A stretch of DNA of 64,000 bases from Eledone cirrhosa (lineage: Eukaryota): assembly GCA_964016885.1 (NCBI GenBank), contig OZ024759.1:29140001-29204000 (forward strand), given 5' to 3'. The first letter of the stretch is position 1. Each line of letters begins with the position of its first letter. Below the pieces are notes generated by a model, which worked only from the letters and a program-made list of their open reading frames with translations, was not told where the DNA came from and did not search any database. Below, piece after piece: positions 1,370-57,737 of this stretch. The position numbers and the translations under genes were made by a program.

Positions 1370-3539
1370 GAAGCATTGCTAGAATTGTGCAGATAATCAT
1401 GATAATAATTGTCAATCTTTATAAATGATAAAGAAAAATGTATAACACAATACTCCTACTTTACAGCAATTCCCCACCACACACACACATTCATTTATTT
1501 AATGTTTGACTCTCATTTTTACTGCTCTCTTGTTGTAAAATTATCAATTGGTGATATCATGATGTCAGCAAAATATAATAGGTATAATAATTTATGGTGG
1601 TGGACCTATTGAAGAACAAATTGTAGGATTTGTTTATTTAGAACTGTTCCAGTTAACCACAGAATTGTGTTGATATGGGCAACTTTTGAAATCCAAACAA
1701 AGCTAAGATATATATATAACATTTACATTGACCCTGTATTTATATATGGGTTAAATTGTGTCACCTAGTCTGAAAAAAACAACAACTCCCAAATATTGAA
1801 GAATTTTAAAACCATGTTATGAGATATATTTTTGGTCGACCCCTGACTGACATAGTTAAAATATTATAACTATGGCCACAACATAAACCAAGATGAGATG
1901 CAATTTTTTTCAAAGTTTGGCTACATCAAATAAGGAGAGGGGTGTCTCTTTAAAATCTGTCTGGGGTTTATGTATGGTACCTGGAAAAGAGAAACCAAGA
2001 ACACCCCAATGGTAGATAATGAGACCAGATACTAAAATGGCCTCGGTATCTATCAGGGTCATAATTCAACACAATGACAATAAACATGTGGGGGTAGGGT
2101 CGCTCTACCTGGAAAGATGGAAAGACCAGATCTTAAATTGGTCTCAATGTTGATTAAAAGGAGACAATGCAATGACAATAAACAAGAAAAAGGACAACAA
2201 CAGTTAACCCTTTAGCAGTTACATTACTCTATATTTACTATTGTACTGTCACAGTAAAGACTTTATCTCACATAGTATCGAAGCTACGAAATTTTGATGA
2301 TGTTATTTATTTTGAGAACAATACCTTAACATCAGTATGAGCAGCTGGTTACGGCCAGTTTAAATAGAAAGAGGTGAGAGAATTCTGGTCAGATATGGCC
2401 AGTTTAAATGCTAAAGGGTTAAATGTCTAAATAATAATATCAAACTTACCTGGGTAGTCTCTCTCTCTCTTGTATTAAACTCCAAACTTTAAGTATAAAG
2501 CTTAGTTTCCGTATTTTTCCAAAATAGAACAGACAAATCTATGCTATCCACCACGCAACATTGGAATTCCTCTTCCAGATTTTACACATCTCTAAAAGAA
2601 GAAAAAAGACTGTATCATTACATTATTATTATTAATGTGGAAAGTGATAGAAGGTTAATGCAAAATGGACTGTAAGATAGAGATAATGAAAAAATAAGTT
2701 ACCTTTGTTTTGTTTTTTGTTGCTGTTGATGAAAGAAACAACAGCAACAACAAAAAAAGAAAAAGATTACCAGGTAACTTATTTTTTCAATATCTCTATC
2801 TTACAGTCCATTTTGCATTGTTTGGCCTTATATCATTTTCCACATTTTATATTATATACAATGTTTCAAGCAAACTACAACATTTTATTATTATTATTGT
2901 TGTTAACCTTGCCTTTCATCCTTACGGGGTCGATAAAATAAAGTACCAGTAATGCACTGAGATAATTGCTAGCCTTGTGCCAAAGTAGAAACAATTGTTA
3001 TTGTTGTTGATGGATTGATGGCGCCATATATAAAGTGCTTTATTATTTATGAAGGTGTGGAGCTCAGTGGTTAATTGGTAAAATGTTGTTTAAAATGCAA
3101 TTGCAGTCTTTGTTCTGACTCTTTACATTCTGGGTTCAAATCGCACCAAAGTCAACTTTGCTTTTCATTCTTTCGAAGCTGATAAAATAAAGTAACAATT
3201 AACTATTGAGATTGATTTAATTAAATTTCTCCTCCCCATATATTACTGGCCTTGGGTGCCTAAATTAGAAATAATTATTAAACTATTATGGTTATTTGCA
3301 TTGGAACACACACACTTCAAAATATGATCCATCATTAAACGTCCATATTTCCACGGTACAATGTGTTTGACAAATTGTCCCATTGTGAGTCAAGTCAGAT
3401 CAGATGACAGTGTTTTGCTCATACAGAACTGTTTCTGGCTTGGTTTCTACAACTGGATACTCTTCTTAATGCCAACCAAGCACATTTACAGTGGGGGGAA
3501 CAGAGTGCTTTTTATCGTGGCACCAAAACAAACTATATA

Positions 3540-3627
3540 CAGGGAGTCCAAAAAAATATATACACTTTGATTACCTGTACATGCAATATTTCTTAGAATG
3601 GTGTATACATTTTTGGGGGCCACCCTG
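3540..3627. mobile_element. Tc1/mariner-type MITE
   Basis: TA-flanked CAGGG...CCCTG with ~28-bp imperfect TIRs; related ends near 53137 and 54000. Confidence 0.65.
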
Positions 3628-4384
3628 TATTTATATAAATACAAAAACAAAAAATATATGTATATATAGCTGAAGTGTCTTTAAGAAATTTGTTAGAACT
3701 GTACTGGCTTGCGGGAGACCTTCCTTTACTCTCATTCATTGCTCTCTTATAATTAATTAAAAATTTTTTTATTATTATTATGAATTTTTGTCTTGTCAAG
3801 GAATGCCTTTACTGCTGCATCCTAGCAGCTCCTAGTAGTGTTCTGCTGACTGATATGGCGTAGAATGCGACACAGACGTCATGTAAATGCAATGATTTCT
3901 GATTTCTCCCTTTCTTTCTTTTTCTCAAGATTAAAGATTTCTTCTTTCTCTTTTTTTTTTTTTTTTTACTTTTTTTTTTTTAAATAAATTTCTTGTCTTT
4001 TTGAATCAAATCCTAATTCTTTTCTCTTTTTTTCTTTCTTTCTTTCTTTCTTTCTTTCTCTCTCTAATTTTTCTCCACCATTTTTTTCTCCCCCAAAACA
4101 TAAATCAAGCATCATTCCTGCAGTTTCCCTGCAACTCTCCTATCTTCAGATGACTTTTATTTTCCATATTCCGCATCAATTCAAATTTTTATCAATGCAA
4201 ATTTATTAATTTTTTAAAAGATTATTCTTATTCTTATTATACATGTTCTTGCTGCTAACTTGGTGACTTTTCCCTCAAAACCTTCTCAAATTCTGAACTC
4301 AATCTCATGATATATTATATATATTAATATATATATATATAATGTATTTATATATATATATATATATAATGTATTTATATATAT

Positions 4385-4439
<55 letters not shown>

Positions 4440-4531
4440 TATATATATATATTCATATATATATATTCATATATATAATGTATATATATATATAGAGATA
4501 TATATAATATATATATATTCATATATATATA

Positions 4532-4729
4532 CAAGGGTCGGCTGAAAAGTTCATAGACTGACCAAGATACTCTCATGGAATGACAAAATGAGGTTTACTT
4601 TTCAACACAGTCCCTAGAAAGAGACAATGCAGTTATTAATAAGAAGAGTTGAAATTAATACATGCAAGATTTCGCAGTTCTAGCATCACTCCTTCATAAT
4701 CCGCCTATGAACTTTTCAACCAGCCCCCG
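4532..4729. mobile_element. mariner-type MITE within (TA)n
   Basis: TIRs gggtcggctgaaaagttcatag / ctatgaacttttcaaccagccc, TA flanks. Confidence 0.7.
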
Positions 4730-4786
<57 letters not shown>

Positions 4787-5120
4787 TAAATGATCTCCTT
4801 CATCTATTGATTATGCCTGATATATTCTACTCTTGCTGCCCCAATACCCCCAACTAATAACTTATGCCTACTTTTAAACTCTCTCCCTGTTCAATTGTCT
4901 TCCATCTTATATCCCCTCTACTATTTCTGTTGTCTATACCTATATATATGTGTATATGTATTCCTCTTCATCTTTTTCCCATATCTATGTGTGTGTGTTT
5001 ATGTTTCTCTCCCATATATATGTATACATATATTATATATATATATACATATATATATTATATATAGATATATATATTATATATACATATATATATTATA
5101 TACATATATATTATACATAC

Positions 5121-5152
<32 letters not shown>

Positions 5153-5171
5153 TATATATACATATAATAAG

Positions 5172-5360
5172 GGCGGTGGATTGGCAGTATCGGTAGAGGG
5201 TCGGACGCCATGCTTTCCAGCATAGTTACGTCCCTTTACGATCTGAGTTCAAATCCCGCCGAGGTTGACTTTGCCTTTCATCCTTACGGGGTCGATAAAA
5301 TAAAGTACCAGTAATGCACTGGGTGATTGCTGGCCTTGTGCCTAAAGTAGAAACAATTAT
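5172..5360 (+). mobile_element. tRNA-derived SINE, full length (family 1)
   Basis: A box TGGCAGTATCGG, B box GAGTTCAAATCC, central GCCTTTCATCCTTACGGGGTCGATAAAATAAAGTACCAG (resembles the MetaSINE domain as recalled), AT tail. Further copies near 2905, 3055, 16788, 18975, 32390, 32630, 39094, 55990 (+) and 21378, 34945, 37125, 37327, 53620 (-). Confidence 0.9.
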
Positions 5361-6093
5361 ATATACATATATATATTATACATACATATATATATATTAT
5401 ACATACATATATATATATTATACATACATATATATATATTATACATACATATATATATATTATACATACATATATATATATTATATATATAATATGTGCG
5501 TATGTGAGTGATGAGAAAGGATTTGTTCCTCATTGATCAATTCCAAAAACATTTAACCCAACCCCATACCATTCTAGCCTGCCCCTTCTCTATTTTTCTC
5601 TATCTTTTTCCTCATTCTATGTCTCTCCTGCATGAGTAGTAGTAAATTAACTGAATGAATGAGCAGGTGACATGGGTAATTACTGGTAGTCAACTGCATG
5701 ATGTAGTAGCAGAATGGAATTTGAACACATAGACTGATTGACTACATTTTTATTCTGTTTATTATTATTTTTTTTTATTATTATTATTGTTGTTGTTATT
5801 ATTACTGGTAATGAACTGCAGTATATACAGGTATATATGTATGTTGTGCACACTGGTGTTATAGATGTAATCCCACTTTGATGTGCAAAATTGTACGCCA
5901 AGTGGTGGTTGATGAGGTACAGATGCAGTTGTCCGTTCATCATATATAATTGTTTTTCAGTGTGCATTTTTCTGCTGATACTCTGTATGTGTATGTGTGT
6001 ACATATAAATACATATATGTATGTGTATGTGTGTGTGTGTGTTCTTTTCTTTAAGACCAACTTGATGCCCTGGAGTTTTTCCTGTGGACTTAT

Positions 6094-6142
6094 CTTGTCT
6101 GATGACCCTGTGAGTACACAGCAGGAACTCCAGAGTAACAAG
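6094..6142 (+). ncRNA. Degenerate type I hammerhead (family C)
   Basis: CTTGT-CTGATGA-stem II ctgtg/cacag-GGAA (for GAAA)-CTC ca GAG-TA-ACAAG; sister copy at 37082-37127 retains GAAA. Confidence 0.45.
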
Positions 6143-6214
6143 CAGGGTCAATAAAAAATAAAGTACCAGTCACGTACGGAGGTCAATGTAATTATTATTA
6201 GGCCAGTGCTTGTT

Positions 6215-6692
6215 TTTGTACTTTATTCTCTGAAAGCCAAACTCAGTCTTCAATTCAGTTTTCGTGCCAACCCTTACTTACGGTCATGAATCTTGGGTAA
6301 TGAACAAAAGAATATAATTGCGAATAAAAGCGGCCGAAATGGGATTCCTCTGAACGGTCTTTGGAGTAACATTACTCGATAAAATGCATAGCTCAGAGAT
6401 CAGGGAGTCACTCCAGGTAGAGTCACTACTACTCCGAATTGAGAGATCACAGCTCCAGTACTATGGGCATGTGGTTAGAATGTCTCAGGAAAGAATCACT
6501 GGACAGATTTTACAACCAAAACCAACTGGCAAGAGGCCCAGGGGAAGACCCTGAGCAAGACGGTTGGATAACATCCATGAGCTTGGCTGGTCTTGCTTGG
6601 GGAGACGGTTGCTTCTGATAGGACCCGCTGGAAGGAGTGTTTGAGGACTCTGCCCCCACGGCCCTCTCCGGAATAAATGGGTGAAGAAGAAG
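6215..6692 (+). mobile_element. RTE-clade LINE 3' fragment
   Basis: Degenerate PTLTYGHESW, AAEMGFL, YGHVVRM, KPTGKRPRGRP, then GAAGAAGAA tail. Confidence 0.85.
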
Positions 6693-7388
6693 AATACTCT
6701 GTGTTGAAGTATCACCAAGGTCATCTTTGCCTTTCATCCTTCATTTGAGATTGATAAAAATCATAGAACACCAGTGATTTACTGGGGGGTTCATTTAATG
6801 TTTAGTTAGTGCGGGTGTTGTTTTCTAAACGCACCCACCCCTTCTATACTCTATTCCATTAAAAACTGGGGTGAATTACAGCTCTTATTTCAACATACCT
6901 TTACAATAACCCCCTACAACCACTACACCTCATCAGCAACAACAACAAGGTATCATCCCTCTGCCCTACCTACCTACCATCCACTTAGTTTCATGTTTAC
7001 CTGATAACAATTTTAATAGGATTATCATGTATGCAATTCCTTGGGACATTTGGCACACCACCACCGCCACCGCCATCACTAACCCCACCCGACTACAACA
7101 ACACTGCCACTACACCCCCCACTTACACCAACACTGCCACCACCATCAACCACACCATGTAATCTTTCACTTGATAAATTAGACTTGGGTAAACTTATCT
7201 TATATCTTGAGAGGGGTAAATGTGTGGGTGGGTGGCTGGGTGGCAGGCATGGGGGAGCAGGTACTACAAAGTAGGAGCAACCAGATATATATAGAGAGAG
7301 AGGGGGATACATATACGTTCACATACATTTATCTCTTCCTTTATTAATATATATATATATATATATATGTGTCGATATTATGTATGTG

Positions 7389-7438
<50 letters not shown>

Positions 7439-7544
7439 CATATACATTCACATACATTTATCTCTTCCTTTATTAATATATATATATATATATGTATATG
7501 TCGATATTATGTATGTGTATATATATATATATATATTGTGTGTG

Positions 7545-7578
<34 letters not shown>

Positions 7579-7689
7579 TACATATACATATACATTCACA
7601 AGCATACATCTATCTCTTCCTTTATTAATATATATATATGTGTGTGTGTATATATATATATACACACACACATATATGTATACATATTG

Positions 7690-7723
<34 letters not shown>

Positions 7724-8461
7724 AGTATATATATGTGTGTGTGTGTGTGCAAGGGATTCTCGTCATGCATGCTTTATACTACTTAAAATGCCTTTTTTAT
7801 CTCTCTCTTCATGTGTGTATATGCATATATGTGCGTGTGTATGTATGTATATGTGTGTGTATGTATGTATATGTGTGTGTGTGTATATGTGTGTATGTAT
7901 ATATAAAAAATTCTGTACCTGAGCATGTATTTTTCCATTTTCTTGAGGATCATGCTATTTTATTGTTGTTGTTGTTAATATTTCAAACAGGGGGTGGGGT
8001 GGGGCTTATTTCCATAAACCTTACCCAGTCCCAGGTGGATGTAAAACTTTAATTAATACCTGGCAAACTTTCATCTCCAATTAGCTACTGATTAGTTTAC
8101 AAAATTAATCTTGTTTGGATTCCTAATACTAGCTCTCCGCTATATATTATCCTCTCCTCTATATATATAAATATGTGTATATGTGTATATATGTGTGTAT
8201 GTGTATAGATCTATCTATATGTTGTGTGTAAGTTCTTACTAACCAGCAGGAATATATGTAGCAGGATAGTCAAAGACAGAAATATATAAAGTTTATCCCA
8301 GGTTCAATCGGGAGTAACCACAGTAAATAAGGTATTCAATACATATATTTATATTAATTTGTTGGAAGTCCGACAAATATAAATGTTTATAACTGATTTA
8401 GAGCACTCAACAAGTTACTGGAGTAAATATTCAATGATATTAAATAAATGGAAACTATATT

Positions 8462-8524
8462 TATTTTATTATATATATTTCAAGGGTACCAAGACACATT
8501 GGTACGCTTTCATCAGATAAAATA
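8462..8524 (-). ncRNA. Minimal type I hammerhead ribozyme (family A)
   Basis: Minus strand: stem I TATTTTAT, core CTGATGA, stem II AAGCGTACCAA/TTGGTACCCTT (10 of 11 pairs), GAA, palindromic ATATATAT stem III, A17, stem I' ATAAAATA. Confidence 0.75.
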
Positions 8525-8629
8525 CAAAGTTTGTTTCATAAATAGAGACATACCCATGAAAATCATACCTTATCGGTTGCATATCCAGTGATTTTCATGG
8601 GTATGTCTTTATTTATAAAACAAACTTTG

Positions 8630-8682
8630 TATTTTATCTGATGAAAGCGTACCAATGTGTTTGAAATATATATAATAAAATA
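8630..8682 (+). ncRNA. Second family-A hammerhead copy, inverted, with shortened stem II
   Basis: TATTTTAT-CTGATGA-aagcgtaccaatgtgttt-GAA-ATATATAT-A-ATAAAATA. Confidence 0.55.
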
Positions 8683-9928
8683 AATATGGTTTTATAAATA
8701 TAGTAATATAGAAAGACTTCTACAGGACTAGAACTGTTTCATTCTACCGAATGAAACAGTTCTAGTCCTGTAGAAGTCTTTCTATATTAAATATATATAT
8801 ATATATTTATTAAAATAACAGATCAAAGTTTAAGCAAAGAATTGCTGCTTTCACCCTTAACAGGATCTTCTGAAACTCTATATATATAATAATTAGTTAC
8901 AACAGTGGCATATGTAGGTATTTAAGTTTCATTGGCTTATACATCCAAACTCATTTAGCCTGTATATTCAGACAGGTAGATTGATACTGAAGTCAGGTCC
9001 ATAGCTTCTGCAGGTGACCTTGAGCCAGTCCTCTGCGAAATACACTCAAGTCGATACACAATAAATACATGTAAACGAAACTTCATCGCTTTTCTTAGTG
9101 TGTGTATACATACATACATATATATATAAATATAGTAGTATATAAGGCACAGAGAAACTGAAGCCCATTGGATGTGTCTTAATATGATATTATTGAGACC
9201 AGTACTACAGCAAAGACATAACAGGGGCCGTTGGCTGGACCAGAAATGCATGTTCCTGTTATGTCTTCGTTATAATACTGGTCTTGATAACATATATATA
9301 TATATATAGTATATAGTTGTACATGTGTAAATGCCTTCTGGTGTTGGATTTTGTGCTTTTATGTTTTGAGTTCAAATTCCACTGATGCTGACTAATCATT
9401 CTTATCCGAGTGTTAATAAAATTAACGTACCAGTCATGCACTGGGGGCAGTTCCAATTAATTAAGCCTTGCTACTTTCTTCCCTAAAACACTTCTTGTCC
9501 TTATGTCAATGTTAAATAACCACCATTACTACTATTATTACATCTGTTGAAGGGGAAAAACATTTTTTTTTTTCCATGGCTTATTTGTTAATATTCTAAG
9601 CAAATGTGGACAAAATCATTTTCGCAATTTTATATTCATTTATCGATAAAATTTTTATTTTATAAATAATATTTAACGATGAATTATATTTATGAAATGT
9701 AAAATATTGATCAAATAATTTTTGTATATTTAATTGCTGTTTTTCAAATATGTTTATTTTTTAAATTTTATTAAATTAATTTTGGTCTCTTGTTGCAAGT
9801 TTTTTTCACATCTTCCCCTCCGTGATTCTTCCCAAAGAATAATGTCTATCTTCCTCAGTCTTCTGGTCTTATGCATGAACCATCTGTCTTTCCTCTCGAA
9901 TGTGTTCTTGTTGATGTGTATGTGTATA

Positions 9929-37011: not shown

Positions 37012-37550
37012 ACATTTTACGAAGGCTAAATAGTGAGTCTTGTTACTCTGGAGCTTTACCTGTTTATCACAGGGGCATCATCTTGTCTGATGACCCTGTG
37101 ATAACAGGCGAAATTCCAGAGTAATAATTGTTTTTACTTTTGGCACAAGGCCAGCAATTACCCAGTGCATTACTGGTACTTTATTTTTATCAACCCCGTA
37201 AGGATGAAAGGCAAAGTTAACCTCGGCAGGATTTGAACTCAGAATGGCAAGGGCCGTAACTATGCATCAAAGCATGGTGTCCGACCCTCTACCAATACTG
37301 CAAATCCACTGCATTTACTGCCAAGTAATAATTGTTTCTACTTTTGGCACAAGGCCAGCAATTACCCAGTGCATTACTGGTACTTTATTTTATCGACCCC
37401 GTAAGGATGAAAGGCAAAGTTAACCTCGGCGGGATTTGAACTCAGAATGGCAAGGGCCGTAACTCTAAGCGTCAAAGCAAGGCGTCCAACTCTCTACCGA
37501 TACTGCCAATCCATAAGTAATAATACTCACTATTTAGCCTTAATAAAATG
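37012..37550. mobile_element. Palindromic family-C hammerhead element interrupted by two tandem SINEs
   Basis: aaggctaaatagtgag near 37022 is mirrored by ctcactatttagcctt near 37526; two minus-strand SINEs at about 37125-37512 bounded by agtaataat repeats. Confidence 0.65.
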
Positions 37551-38898: not shown

Positions 38899-40744
38899 CA
38901 ATACAGAATGATTCATTCCGTCATTAAAATAACAGAAGTCTGACAAGCTTTTGATTCCATAGTCGGGTCCAATCGATATAGATTGAACCTTGAGCTGATC
39001 AATCACGAAACGCGCATCACACCTCGATAAATGTAATGAAACCTCGTCCATATTATTATTATTACACTCTTTATTATTACTACACGACCCCGTGCCTTTC
39101 ACCCTTACGGGGTCGATAAAATAAAGTACCAGTGATACACTGGGGTAATAGCTGGCCTTGTGCCAAAAGTAGAAACAATTATTATTATTACACTCTGCTT
39201 AGTACAACCCCAACATTCATACTGGAAACTATGCATAGAGTGCTCACTTTGGTGAACCTACGGTAACTTGACTTTACAATCCCTAAACTATATAAACAAG
39301 TACATAGCTGGAAAAATTATCTTTTAACCCTTTAGTATTTAAACCAGCTGTATCCAGCCATAATTCTCTCACCTCTTTCTGTTCAAACCAGCCATAACCA
39401 GCCACTCATACCAATGTTAAGGTATTGTTCTTAATATAAATAAGATCAAAATCTCGTAGATTCGATTTTATGTAAGATAATTATGAGAGATAAAACCTTT
39501 TCTGTGAAAACATAACAGTAAATATAGAGTTCTGTGAATGATAATGGGTTAAATCATATTTATTTCCTTACACATGTTTCAAGAGTGTTGTACATCAAAT
39601 TATTTGAAATGTTATGAAACAATTTGCATCATCAATATAAGCATTGATATATATGTATATACATATATGATGTATATGTATATACATATATGATATATAT
39701 GTACGCATCTTATCACCTTTGTGCATATAGTTTTACCTTTACTGTATAGATCATCATCACTGTTTAACGTCCATTTTTCCACACTAGCATGGATTAGAAG
39801 GGTTGTGTCCCGTTTAAGGCAAGTTGGGTCAGGTGACCATGTCTTGCTCACACAGAACTCTTTCTGGCTTAATTTCTATAACTGGATGCCCTTGCTAACA
39901 CCAACCACATTTACAGTGTGGGCTGGGTCTTTTTTGTCATGACTCCTACAAGGGCACTTGGGTAAAAAAAATTGTTAGGAAGCCTGTCAGATCAACTACA
40001 CCAGTAATTCAAAGGGCCATCCTTGTCATACACGGTGTTACAATGAATGTTCATGAAAATTAAATTAAGGAATACTCAGCCATATACTTTATAATACAAG
40101 ATGAACTATATTTGTAAGTCAAAGGGCAGGCCTTGCCATACACACTGTTATGCTGAATCTCCCTGAGATCTATGTTAAGGGTATATGTGTCTGTGGAATG
40201 CTCAACCACACACATGCTAATTTTATGATCAATATATATATAATATATATATGTCCAACCCATGCAAGCATGGAAAAAAACGGACATAAAAACAATGATG
40301 ATGATATATATATTATATATATAATATATGTAATATATATATATGATATATAACTATATACATAATATATAATATATAACTATATACATAATATATATAT
40401 ATATATAACTATATACATAATATATATATATATATATATATAACTATATACATAATATATAATATATTATATATATATATATAATACACACATATATACA
40501 CACACTGATACATCACAACACAGACATTCATATAAACATTAATATCGACATACTCATAAATTACAATTATGCGCTTTTCTATGTATCTAGATTATATATA
40601 TATATATACACATATATATATATACATATATATATATATACATATATATATATACACACACGTGCGTGCGTCTAACCCATGTGAGCATGAAAAAGTGGAC
40701 ATAAATGGATAATGAAGATGTGTGTGTACATGCACACATATAGA

Positions 40745-52344: not shown

Positions 52345-52720
52345 GGCGCATAGCTTAGTGGTTAGAGCATTGGGCTTGCAATCGAAAGGTTGTGTGTTCA
52401 ATTCTCGGACCGGGTGATGGATGTATTGTTTCATTGAGCAAGACACTTTATTTCACATTGCTCCAGTTTACTCAGCTGGGGTCCCTATCATTCCACTGCA
52501 AAGTGGTCGTGTAGGTGCCACGGAAAAAAATGCACCCAGTACTCACTGTAAATGAGGTTGGTGTTAGGAAGGGCATCCAGCTGTAGAAATCAAGCCAGAA
52601 TCAGTTCCCGTATGAGCAAGACAAGGTCAGCCGACCAGACACTGCCCACAACAGGACAACCCGTCTAACCCATGCTAGCGTGGAACAACGAACATAAAAC
52701 AGTGATGATGATGATGATGA
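52345..52720 (+). mobile_element. tRNA-derived SINE family 2 with (GAT)n tail
   Basis: A box TAGCTTAGTGG, B box GTTCAATTC, CORE-like TTGAGCAAGACAC, middle GTTAGGAAGGGCATCCAGCTGTAGAAA, end AACCCATGCTAGC..(GAT)n. Reverse copy at about 33955-34282; 3' fragments near 3330, 14220, 31390, 34290, 37960, 39750, 58105, 63450. Confidence 0.85.
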
Positions 52721-52749
52721 TATATATATTATATATATATGTATGAGAA

Positions 52750-52783
<34 letters not shown>

Positions 52784-52823
52784 CGATATTAATAAATGGA
52801 AACTATATTTATAAAACCATATT

Positions 52824-52888
52824 TATTTCATTATACATATTTCAGGGTTACCAAATTAAATTATGGTATGCCTTCATCAGACAAAATA
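52824..52888 (-). ncRNA. Minimal type I hammerhead ribozyme (family A, diverged)
   Basis: TATTTTGT-CTGATGA-AGGCATACCA..TGGTAACCCT-GAA-ATATGTAT-A-ATGAAATA; A-T to G-C covariation in stem II and G.U substitutions in stem I versus the 8.5-kb copy. Confidence 0.72.
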
Positions 52889-53095
52889 CAATATATAACA
52901 GTTTTATAAATAAGCTTTGACGTACCCTATTAAAATGCAACCATTATTTTTGGAAGCCATGAGGATGGCTTCCAAAAATAATGGTTGCATTATATTACAG
53001 ACATAGAAATTGTTTTGTTTCAGTAATGTGGCCTATGGTAAGGGCATGGGACTTACGATCATAATGTCATGGGTTCAATATATGGACTGTGTGTG

Positions 53096-53898: not shown

Positions 53899-54197
53899 CT
53901 GAACAAAATATTCTAAGCCTGTCTAATTTGTTTTGAATAATAATAACTTTGAGATTATTCTATATAATCATTGCTTTTATCACTATTCAAAGTGTGTATA
54001 CATTTTTGGGGGGAGATATTGTTATACTTTGGGAGGGTCATGTTGCTAATAAAAACACACGCACCTCCCAATGTATAACAATATATATATAATAAAATAG
54101 AGATGATATAAAGTATATATATCTTTCGTTTATTACTATTATTATTATTATTACCAGAAATCATTATTATTATCATATATATATATGTGTGTATCCC

Positions 54198-54249
54198 GGC
54201 TTTCCTGATGATTTCCTTTAAATGAAACAGTTCTAGACCTGTAGAAGCC
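54198..54249 (+). ncRNA. Type I hammerhead-like motif (family B)
   Basis: GGCTTTC-CTGATGA-weak stem II-GAAA-CAG ttctagac CTG-TA-GAAGCC; GUA cleavage triplet. Related copy at about 57519-57563 has lost stem I. Confidence 0.55.
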
Positions 54250-54429
54250 ATTTCTATATTAAATATATGTGTGTGTGTCTGTGATAAAGATATATATATA
54301 TACTCTGTGAAGTTGTAAAACTACAGCGATTTAAAATTTACCTGTTGGGTTAAACTCTGATCTGTCTCTTACCTATCTTGCTGTGGACTATAAAGTGACA
54401 TTGAGCTTTTCCTTTATATGGTTGTATCA

Positions 54430-57487: not shown

Positions 57488-57737
57488 TAATCAACTATAC
57501 CCCCTTCTATACACCCCCCTGATGATTTCTCTTGAATGAAACAGTTCTAGTCCTGTAGAAGCCATTTCTATATTAAACTTGATATATACTTACATACACA
57601 CACACATATATATATATATATATAAATGTAGTAAATTTGAATACTACAGCTACTAATGATACTACAACTACTACTAATACTAATACTACTACCATAACAC
57701 CACCACCACCACCACTACTGGTATTTTCTCTCAACAG

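What the first reader, a model, noticed from the sequence alone, without database searches (positions are those of the whole stretch)
52790..52991. Diverged sister hammerhead with compensatory changes, next to a perfect 27-bp hairpin
Seen: relative to the 8.5-kb copy, stem II base AAG/CTT becomes AGG/CCT, the stem II loop is replaced, and stem I changes are G.U-compatible, while CUGAUGA and GAAA are unchanged. It shares the flank ataaatggaaactatattt and is followed by aatgcaaccattatttttggaagccat-gagg-reverse complement (52934-52991). Inference: selection on the RNA fold in the source elements; the best internal evidence that the ribozymes are real.
Basis: partly seen in the sequence, partly recalled or inferred. 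Interest (0 to 1): 0.75.

Follow-up and report, generated by a model that had tools for sequence, protein, structure and literature searches.

The report
Dimer-type hammerhead of Hydra retrotransposons
This is one of about 65,000 matching copies in an animal genome of a small RNA motif, predicted to cut itself, carried by a known kind of jumping gene; paired sequence changes show its fold has been preserved and suggest that two copies likely pair up to cut, while the neighbouring hairpin is likely just a copying scar.

Summary
Window 52824-52888 (-) is a minimal type I hammerhead in the 3' end (pseudo-LTR) of a young Penelope-like retrotransposon. Its ORF, found in other genomic copies, has Hydra-clade motifs and a telomerase-like RT model. 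The lineage's hammerhead pattern has 65,284 exact genomic matches (control 0).

Across 28 picked lineage representatives all 9 stem II pairs change on both sides, and a G.U intermediate family bridges AAG/CTT and AGG/CCT. The four-base helix III loop stays self-complementary (AUAU, AUGU, ACGU, GCGC, GAUC; U.G 25,601 vs C.A 545 matches), as expected for dimer cleavage.

Limits: the first stem II pair is A-U, not G10.1-C11.1. Rfam finds no hammerhead. This truncated copy has a rare A.A mismatch. Copy ends do not pile up at the cut site, and cleavage is untested.

The 27-bp hairpin is not part of the ribozyme. It is an inversion junction at the 5' truncation; 58 genomic sites fold back at the same point.

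This is a known kind (Cervera 2014; Craig 2021). The scan earlier noted related Hydra/Penelope hammerheads on other DNA. Interest 0.3.

The parts
52776..52960 (-). 5'-truncated copy (last about 185 nt, pseudo-LTR end) of a young Hydra-type Penelope-like element ('family B'); no ORF in the window
   Evidence: 98% identical to the 3' end of full copy L033; 41 genomic places match all 146 query nt at 99-100% among 40 scored of 1024 candidates; tblastn of the ORF finds nothing in the window
52824..52888 (-). Minimal type I hammerhead: helix I 8 bp (2 G.U), CUGAUGA, stem II of 3 bp + C.C + 5 bp (6 in the family), GAAA, helix III 2 bp + AUGU loop, UA
   Evidence: covariation
52831..52832 (-). Predicted cleavage site AUA|A (after A17)
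   Evidence: Position from hammerhead numbering; not shown experimentally
52833..52840 (-). Self-complementary helix III octamer AUAUGUAU, the predicted dimer interface
   Evidence: Loop variants AUAU/AUGU/ACGU/GCGC/GAUC; genome counts; energy model
52848..52848 (-). Rare variant making an A.A mismatch in upper stem II (the family has A-U)
52934..52991 (.). 27-bp perfect DNA inverted repeat: the element's own sequence plus a short inverted copy at the 5' truncation point (loop GAGG; the inverted arm carries no hammerhead)
52720..52783 (.). (TA)n-rich target site at the element's 3' end
   Evidence: 40 of 81 family 3' ends run into (TA)n at this point
8462..8524 (-). Sister hammerhead ('family A': AAG/CUU, loop AUAU) in another truncated copy
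   Evidence: an ORF piece in locus L056, fetched through a family A hammerhead match, is 72% identical to the family B protein
8589..8704 (+). Inverted second arm of the family A insertion, with a 10-nt deletion in stem II

Best explanation
The motif is a minimal type I hammerhead in the pseudo-LTR of a young Penelope-like retrotransposon with Hydra-clade motifs, its fold is kept by paired changes across the lineage, and it likely cuts RNA only as a dimer, while the 27-bp hairpin is likely a fold-back scar of this one insertion. Shown: identity, copy number, covariation, self-complementary helix III, insertion anatomy. Inferred: a transcript through pLTR-ORF-pLTR carries two hammerheads about 4.2 kb apart (L033). 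They pair their helix III octamers and swap helix I strands. Each then cuts at AUA|A, slowly and probably with help from the element's protein, to release a unit-length RNA with a 188-nt leader before the ATG. Insertion is inferred to be by target-primed reverse transcription into (TA)n from two fixed start points 3' of the cut site, on uncut or re-ligated RNA. In this copy the cDNA is inferred to have stopped after about 185 nt at a small palindrome of the element (ATCCGGAT-type) and been copied back on itself for 29 nt. This single truncated copy is probably inert. My odds by step: identity 0.95, selection on the fold 0.9, hairpin as junction scar 0.9, dimer cleavage in cells 0.65.
For: Element: L033 holds pLTR-ORF-pLTR with a 743-aa open frame carrying RWR, DKT, YRDD, CxCx5C, CxxC and CxH, matching the Hydra description. 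Its AlphaFold model (pLDDT 82) best matches TERT structures (E 7e-9). Covariation. G.U intermediate family AGG/CTT: 2,619 G.T against 810 A.C matches, and 47 of the first 100 A.C rows are artefacts of a nested second CTGATGA (by eye). Helix III inner pair: U.G 25,601 against C.A 545 of 65,284, and 76 of the first 100 C.A rows are TGCACA, the CpG-decay product of TGCGCA (by eye). No general A>G bias in 30 ORF copies (shared A/G 172, C/T 170). At 52 pLTR ends found by flank alone only N7 varies as shared states, and other core changes occur once or twice. Family C is 51% identical in protein yet keeps core and fold. Dimer model -20.6 against 2 x monomer -9.0 kcal/mol. Hairpin: 58 sites fold back at the same point; the arms share the C/T variant in 48 of 50 listed sites (by eye); in 10 of 15 fetched sites the arms match for 178-182 nt. 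Two fixed 3' ends, 92 nt apart.
Against: No cleavage test. No Rfam hammerhead match at E<=10. The first stem II position is A-U here and is loosely kept in the lineage (28 rows: A-U 14, G.U 6, G-C 5, U.U 2, A.C 1), and A.C is fixed in at least one subfamily, whereas G10.1-C11.1 is reported as highly conserved in PLE hammerheads (PMC4209133). Helix I is mostly invariant and A/U-rich, partly fixed by my search pattern, and RNAalifold did not predict it. The family B helix III duplex is weak (-2.2 kcal/mol). 5' ends show no pile-up at the cut site: among 30 loci about 12 are true truncations and 1 lies within 1 nt of it (by eye). In a Poseidon PLE, hammerhead mutants did not affect insertion in vitro (PMC11167929). 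Genome counts are copy counts from few independent events. Representatives were hand-picked, and several came from searches that selected mutated positions. The GAGG loop is not among the 50 listed junction loops, so its origin is unexplained.
Confidence: 0.75

Rival explanations
1. The hammerhead fold is selected for a role other than releasing unit RNA for insertion, such as cap-independent translation of the ORF 188 nt downstream of the cut, or self-limiting destruction of tandem read-through transcripts.
For: Insertions read straight through the cut site and start 3' of it; no pile-up of 5' ends at the site; hammerhead cleavage was dispensable for insertion in vitro in another PLE (PMC11167929, passages); 5'-UTR hammerheads drive translation in some RNA viruses (PMC13725137, abstract only).
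Against: No direct evidence in this element. The sequence constraints (core, palindrome) are the same under either role, so this is an alternative purpose rather than an alternative structure.
Confidence: 0.3
2. The RNA is a structured but catalytically dead or near-dead hammerhead relic whose stem II is kept as a protein-binding or packaging signal.
For: A-U, G.U, U.U or A.C at the 10.1-11.1 position; low in vitro rates reported for metazoan minimal hammerheads (PMC4209133); no Rfam hit.
Against: The core varies as shared states only at N7. The core is kept between families 51% identical in protein. Self-complementarity of the helix III loop is kept through double changes, which a stem II binding role does not explain.
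Confidence: 0.12
3. The apparent compensation comes from mutation bias (A-to-I editing or reverse-transcriptase error) and shared descent, not selection.
For: The one-sided changes between the two window copies are all A>G on the RNA strand; few independent events; editing local to RNA stems is not excluded.
Against: No A/G excess in the ORF. The second steps are U>C. Transversion-type swaps occur (U-A against G-C or A-U at the third stem II pair; loop GAUC). Slid controls are far lower.
Confidence: 0.06
4. The 27-bp hairpin is a functional RNA element (miRNA precursor, terminator or ribozyme partner).
For: Very stable fold (z -11.9); sub-threshold Rfam miRNA matches (37-42 bits against gathering scores of 86-140).
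Against: Both arms are element sequence, and intact elements hold only one arm. Arm length and loop differ between insertions. The Rfam hits are generic hairpin matches.
Confidence: 0.04

Closest known systems
Minimal type I hammerheads in pseudo-LTRs of metazoan Penelope-like elements (Cervera and de la Pena 2014, PMC4209133; parts 1-2 of 4 read)
   Same: Type I topology, location in the pLTR, long helix II, tiny palindromic helix III, many families with covariation, mostly lone copies in truncated elements, proposed dimer action.
   Different: First helix II pair is A-U (or G.U, G-C, U.U, A.C) rather than the highly conserved G10.1-C11.1; there is a conserved pyrimidine-pyrimidine mismatch at the fourth position; helix I is 8 bp; the cleavage triplet is AUA; there are 65,284 pattern matches in one genome against about 2,000-9,000 reported there.
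Hydra clade of C-terminal EN+ PLEs, e.g. Hydra-1_Obim (Craig et al. 2021, PMC8557442; section 11, passages and supplementary files S1/S2 seen)
   Same: RWK-like and DKT motifs, CxCx5C linker, CxxC and CxH in the nuclease, (TA)n targets, hammerhead present, tandem and inverted 5'-truncated arms, tail extension.
   Different: Unit about 4.2 kb rather than under 3 kb; tail 92 nt rather than 30-40; the hammerhead sequence differs from every Hydra row in file S2, where helix III has 3-4 bp plus a 1-3 nt loop.
Poseidon element PAc of Anolis (Frangieh et al. 2024, PMC11167929; passages)
   Same: Two reverse-transcription start points that define the tail, A/T-rich targets, copies that read through the hammerhead site.
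   Different: Different PLE clade; there the ORF starts inside the hammerhead, and protein-assisted cleavage was shown in vitro. Nothing has been shown here.
Amphibian non-LTR retrozyme hammerheads (Cervera and de la Pena 2020, PMC7229834; passages)
   Same: Short helix III, dimer-dependent cleavage (shown there), very high copy number (126,247 in axolotl).
   Different: Those are short non-coding tandem repeats; this lineage has coding, ORF-bearing members.

Membership tests
Type I hammerhead ribozyme | Core C3-U4-G5-A6-N7-G8-A9 and G12-A13-A14-A15.1 | tested here: met
   only N7 varies as shared states at 52 flank-anchored ends
Type I hammerhead ribozyme | U16.1-H17 cleavage site opposite A15.1 | tested here: met
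   AUA|A at 52832/52831; A-U in 27 of 28 rows, with this column favoured by the search pattern
Type I hammerhead ribozyme | Helices I, II and III around the core, ends in helix I | tested here: met
   Helix II 9 of 9 pairs covary; helix I 92.9% paired but mostly invariant; helix III 2 bp as a monomer
Type I hammerhead ribozyme | G10.1-C11.1 pair (typical; reported as highly conserved but not part of the minimal descriptor) | tested here: not met
   A-U in the window; G-C in 5 of 28 lineage rows. Published Hydra hammerheads also often lack it (file S2), so it is treated as typical rather than defining.
Type I hammerhead ribozyme | Loop 1-loop 2 tertiary contact of canonical fast hammerheads | not tested
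   No analysis made; the apical loop of helix II is not conserved
Type I hammerhead ribozyme | Self-cleavage | not testable with these tools
   Needs an in vitro assay
Rfam hammerhead models | Match to a curated covariance model | tested here: not met
   No hammerhead family among 20 matches at E<=10 in 52760-53020; not filed under an Rfam family
PLE minimal (dimer-type) hammerhead | Lies in the pseudo-LTR of a PLE, sense to the ORF | tested here: met
   L033, L031, L032, L034
PLE minimal (dimer-type) hammerhead | Very short helix III with palindromic loop | tested here: met
   AUGU here (palindromic with G.U); AUAU, ACGU, GCGC, GAUC in relatives
Hydra-clade PLE | Single ORF with telomerase-like RT | tested here: met
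   743-aa open frame with YRDD; top fold matches are TERT; Pfam scan gave no significant hit
Hydra-clade PLE | RWK motif, DKG modified to DKT, CxCx5C linker, CxxC and CxH near the nuclease E and N | tested here: met
   RWR, SDKTNN, CNCRNKSNC, CDLC..E, CRH read in P0001 against the description
Hydra-clade PLE | C-terminal GIY-YIG endonuclease lacking CCHH | tested here: inconclusive
   VVY...YVG motif by eye and a folded C-terminal domain in the model; the domain was not searched on its own
Hydra-clade PLE | Insertion into (TA)n | tested here: met
Hydra-clade PLE | Phylogenetic placement of the RT within Hydra | not tested
   No named reference proteins were available as session sequences

The most novel reading that the evidence does not exclude
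One retrotransposon lineage has filled an animal genome with about 65,000 dimer-type hammerheads whose intermolecular helix is kept by stepwise compensatory change (AUAU, AUGU, ACGU, GCGC). That is genomic evidence that hammerhead dimerisation itself is under selection. Because the palindrome differs by family, it could also act as a self-recognition code that lets each family's RNAs cut each other in trans but not those of other families, even though reverse transcription uses RNA that is uncut or re-joined.
Probability: 0.3. Interest if true: 0.6.

Novelty: new member of a known kind. Interest (0 to 1): 0.3.

Why it matters
Why Penelope-like elements keep slow, dimer-type hammerheads is open: published in vitro work finds low activity and no need for cleavage in insertion. 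This lineage offers young families with intact ORFs, a ladder of natural compensatory variants in helix II and in the dimer interface, and a non-canonical first pair. That makes it a ready natural series for testing dimer dependence and family specificity. The existence of such hammerheads, their palindromic helix III and their covariation are already in print, so the gain is better evidence, not a new class.

Tried and rejected
(1) Rfam: whole window at E<=1 (150 of 208 rows shown, all miRNA-type) and the region at E<=10 gave no hammerhead. (2) Pfam on P0001 and 3 homologues, and PDB by sequence and by profile, gave nothing significant. (3) Expression: no RNA holder listed, so no evidence either way. 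Contigs of 4 runs of unrecorded kind were laid; one X4 contig matches 52965-53070 without differences, and none bridges the hairpin loop. (4) A genomic footprint of cleavage (5' ends at the cut site) was looked for among 4,297 matches, 100 listed and 30 fetched, and not found. Two arms starting near the site (L015, L134) are within scatter. (5) General A>G editing bias: not seen in the ORF. (6) The T variant shared by both hairpin arms is a common family polymorphism (9 T, 7 C), so it is not diagnostic on its own. (7) An alternative stem II register with a bulged A and G10.1 was rejected because the unshifted register pairs in all families. (8) Rows dropped: one search left out 8 named hits (nested CTGA, chance or deleted copies) and short ones (241 of 255 kept). 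One search kept 24 clusters and left out 76 one-locus clusters, and its cluster 1 was ignored as unrelated. The alignment used 28 hand-picked rows out of 351. (9) Lunse et al. 2017 (PLE hammerhead dimers) is not held; I saw it only as cited in PMC6765202. (10) Literature searches found no paper on this lineage's hammerheads or on A10.1-U11.1 rates. PMC13282606 has no 'Hydra' or 'ribozyme' in its main text. Subscription papers and bioRxiv supplements were not visible.

Full report
OBSERVATION. The features described are in the sequence. On the minus strand 52888-52824 reads as a type I hammerhead: 8-bp helix I, CUGAUGA, helix II, GAAA, U-AUGU-A, UA, with the cut predicted between 52832 and 52831. 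The fold energy alone is unremarkable (z -0.20), and Rfam has no hammerhead match.

WHAT IT BELONGS TO. The window lies in a 3.0-Gb genome. The 146-nt region has many near-identical copies (41 full-length places at 99-100%, 40 of 1024 candidates scored). Pairs of copies 3-4 kb apart flank an ORF. L033 is pLTR-ORF-3'UTR-pLTR, with hammerheads 4,234 bp apart on the coding strand and a 743-aa open frame. The protein has RWR, DKT, YRDD, CNCRNKSNC, CxxC and CxH, which match the description of Hydra-clade Penelope-like elements (PMC8557442 section 11). Its model best matches telomerase RT. Many genomic copies have open frames at 84-100% identity. A loose lineage pattern has 65,284 exact matches against 0 for the control; one family alone has 17,053, with a protein 51% identical to P0001.

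COVARIATION. I aligned 28 hand-picked representatives out of 351 extracted hammerheads. With the hammerhead structure, 91.5% of cells pair and 13 of 21 pairs change on both sides. No shuffle of 500 reaches this, and slid structures give 35-53% pairing. RNAalifold, unguided, returns helix II with 9 of 9 covarying pairs but not helices I or III. Genome-wide, G.T at that pair has 2,619 matches that form clear families, whereas A.C has 810, about half of the listed ones artefacts. These are copy counts, not independent events, and the shuffle ignores descent. The ORF shows no A>G bias that could mimic wobble pairs. At 52 ends located by flank only, N7 is the only core position with shared variants. 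Against: the first helix II position tolerates G.U, U.U and A.C, and helix I says little because it hardly varies.

DIMER SIGNATURE. The four loop bases of helix III are self-complementary in the multi-copy families seen: AUAU, AUGU, ACGU, GCGC, GAUC. Only 36 of 256 tetramers have this property. U.G in the centre has 25,601 matches and its strand mirror C.A has 545, mostly CpG decay of GCGC. A nearest-neighbour model favours the swapped dimer (-20.6 against -9.0 kcal/mol), though the family B duplex is weak. Palindromic helix III and dimer action are published for PLE hammerheads (PMC4209133; PMC6765202 passages).

THE HAIRPIN. The window insertion is (TA)n, then 185 nt of the element end, then 'ga', then 29 nt of the same sequence inverted. 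The same fold-back point occurs at 58 genomic sites. In the 50 listed, 40 have a 4-nt loop formed by the element's own ATCCGGAT-type palindrome, and 48 have matching variants in both arms (by eye), which points to copying from one molecule. In 10 of 15 fetched sites the arms match for 178-182 nt; the window's second arm stops early and has no hammerhead. Inverted 5'-truncated arms are a known PLE feature. The GAGG loop itself is unexplained.

HOW IT WORKS. Copies have two fixed 3' ends: 40 of 81 end about 50 nt after the cut site and 20 end 92 nt further on. This resembles the two RT start sites of the Anolis element (PMC11167929). cDNAs therefore cross the cut site, so the template is uncut or re-ligated, and I found no pile-up of 5' ends there. 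The best reading is slow, dimer-dependent, probably protein-assisted cutting of tandem transcripts into unit RNAs. Whether that serves circularisation, translation or self-restraint is open. The window copy is a lone truncated insertion and probably inert.

VERDICT. It is a new member of a known kind. Interest 0.3. The bold reading, family-specific dimer recognition, has probability 0.3 and would deserve 0.6. Papers seen: PMC8557442 (passages, section 11, supplement rows), PMC4209133 (parts 1-2 of 4), PMC11167929, PMC6765202, PMC7229834 and PMC13282606 (passages), bioRxiv 10.64898/2026.07.22.740005 (part 1 of 5), PMC13725137 (abstract). Earlier scan notes on other DNA describe Hydra/Penelope hammerheads and a twin hairpin beyond the two ends; I checked the twin motif in part.

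Noticed in passing
L033 / L076, just 3' of each of the two fixed element ends (not in the window copy): A twin motif ACTCC...GAGTGC after the first end and GCTCC...GAGCGC after the second. The first is also present in families A, C and the GGAC family. It may mark reverse-transcription start points; the lead came from earlier scan notes.
   Followed up: partly
window 54192-54262 (+), 57506-57590 (+), 8704-8789: A second hammerhead-like family: CUGAUGA-U...U-GAAA, helix III ACAG/CUGU around a UCUAG-containing loop. The 54.2-kb copy folds with all three helices. Its 3' part forms the 41-bp fold-back at 8704-8789.
   Followed up: partly
window 37075-37135 (+): A third hammerhead-like motif (CCUG/CAGG helix II) with an inverted partial copy directly upstream.
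   Followed up: partly
window 39551-39582 (-): Decayed fragment of the same lineage (GAAA, helix III hexamer and helix I 3' strand); no core upstream.
   Followed up: no
window 51977 and 52740: A 17-nt duplication flanks a roughly 700-bp repeat ending in (GAT)n just upstream of the finding; possibly a target-site duplication.
   Followed up: no
L033 2657-2768 and relatives: The family B 3' UTR carries its own internal (TA)n run of variable length about 710-825 nt from the end.
   Followed up: no
L138, L168, L249 and others (GGAC...CTCT family): One subfamily has a second CUGAUGA inside the helix II loop.
   Followed up: no
alignment A1 columns 23 and 59: A pyrimidine-pyrimidine mismatch (mostly C.C) at the fourth position of helix II is kept across nearly all families, including the most distant, which suggests a structural role.
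   Followed up: partly
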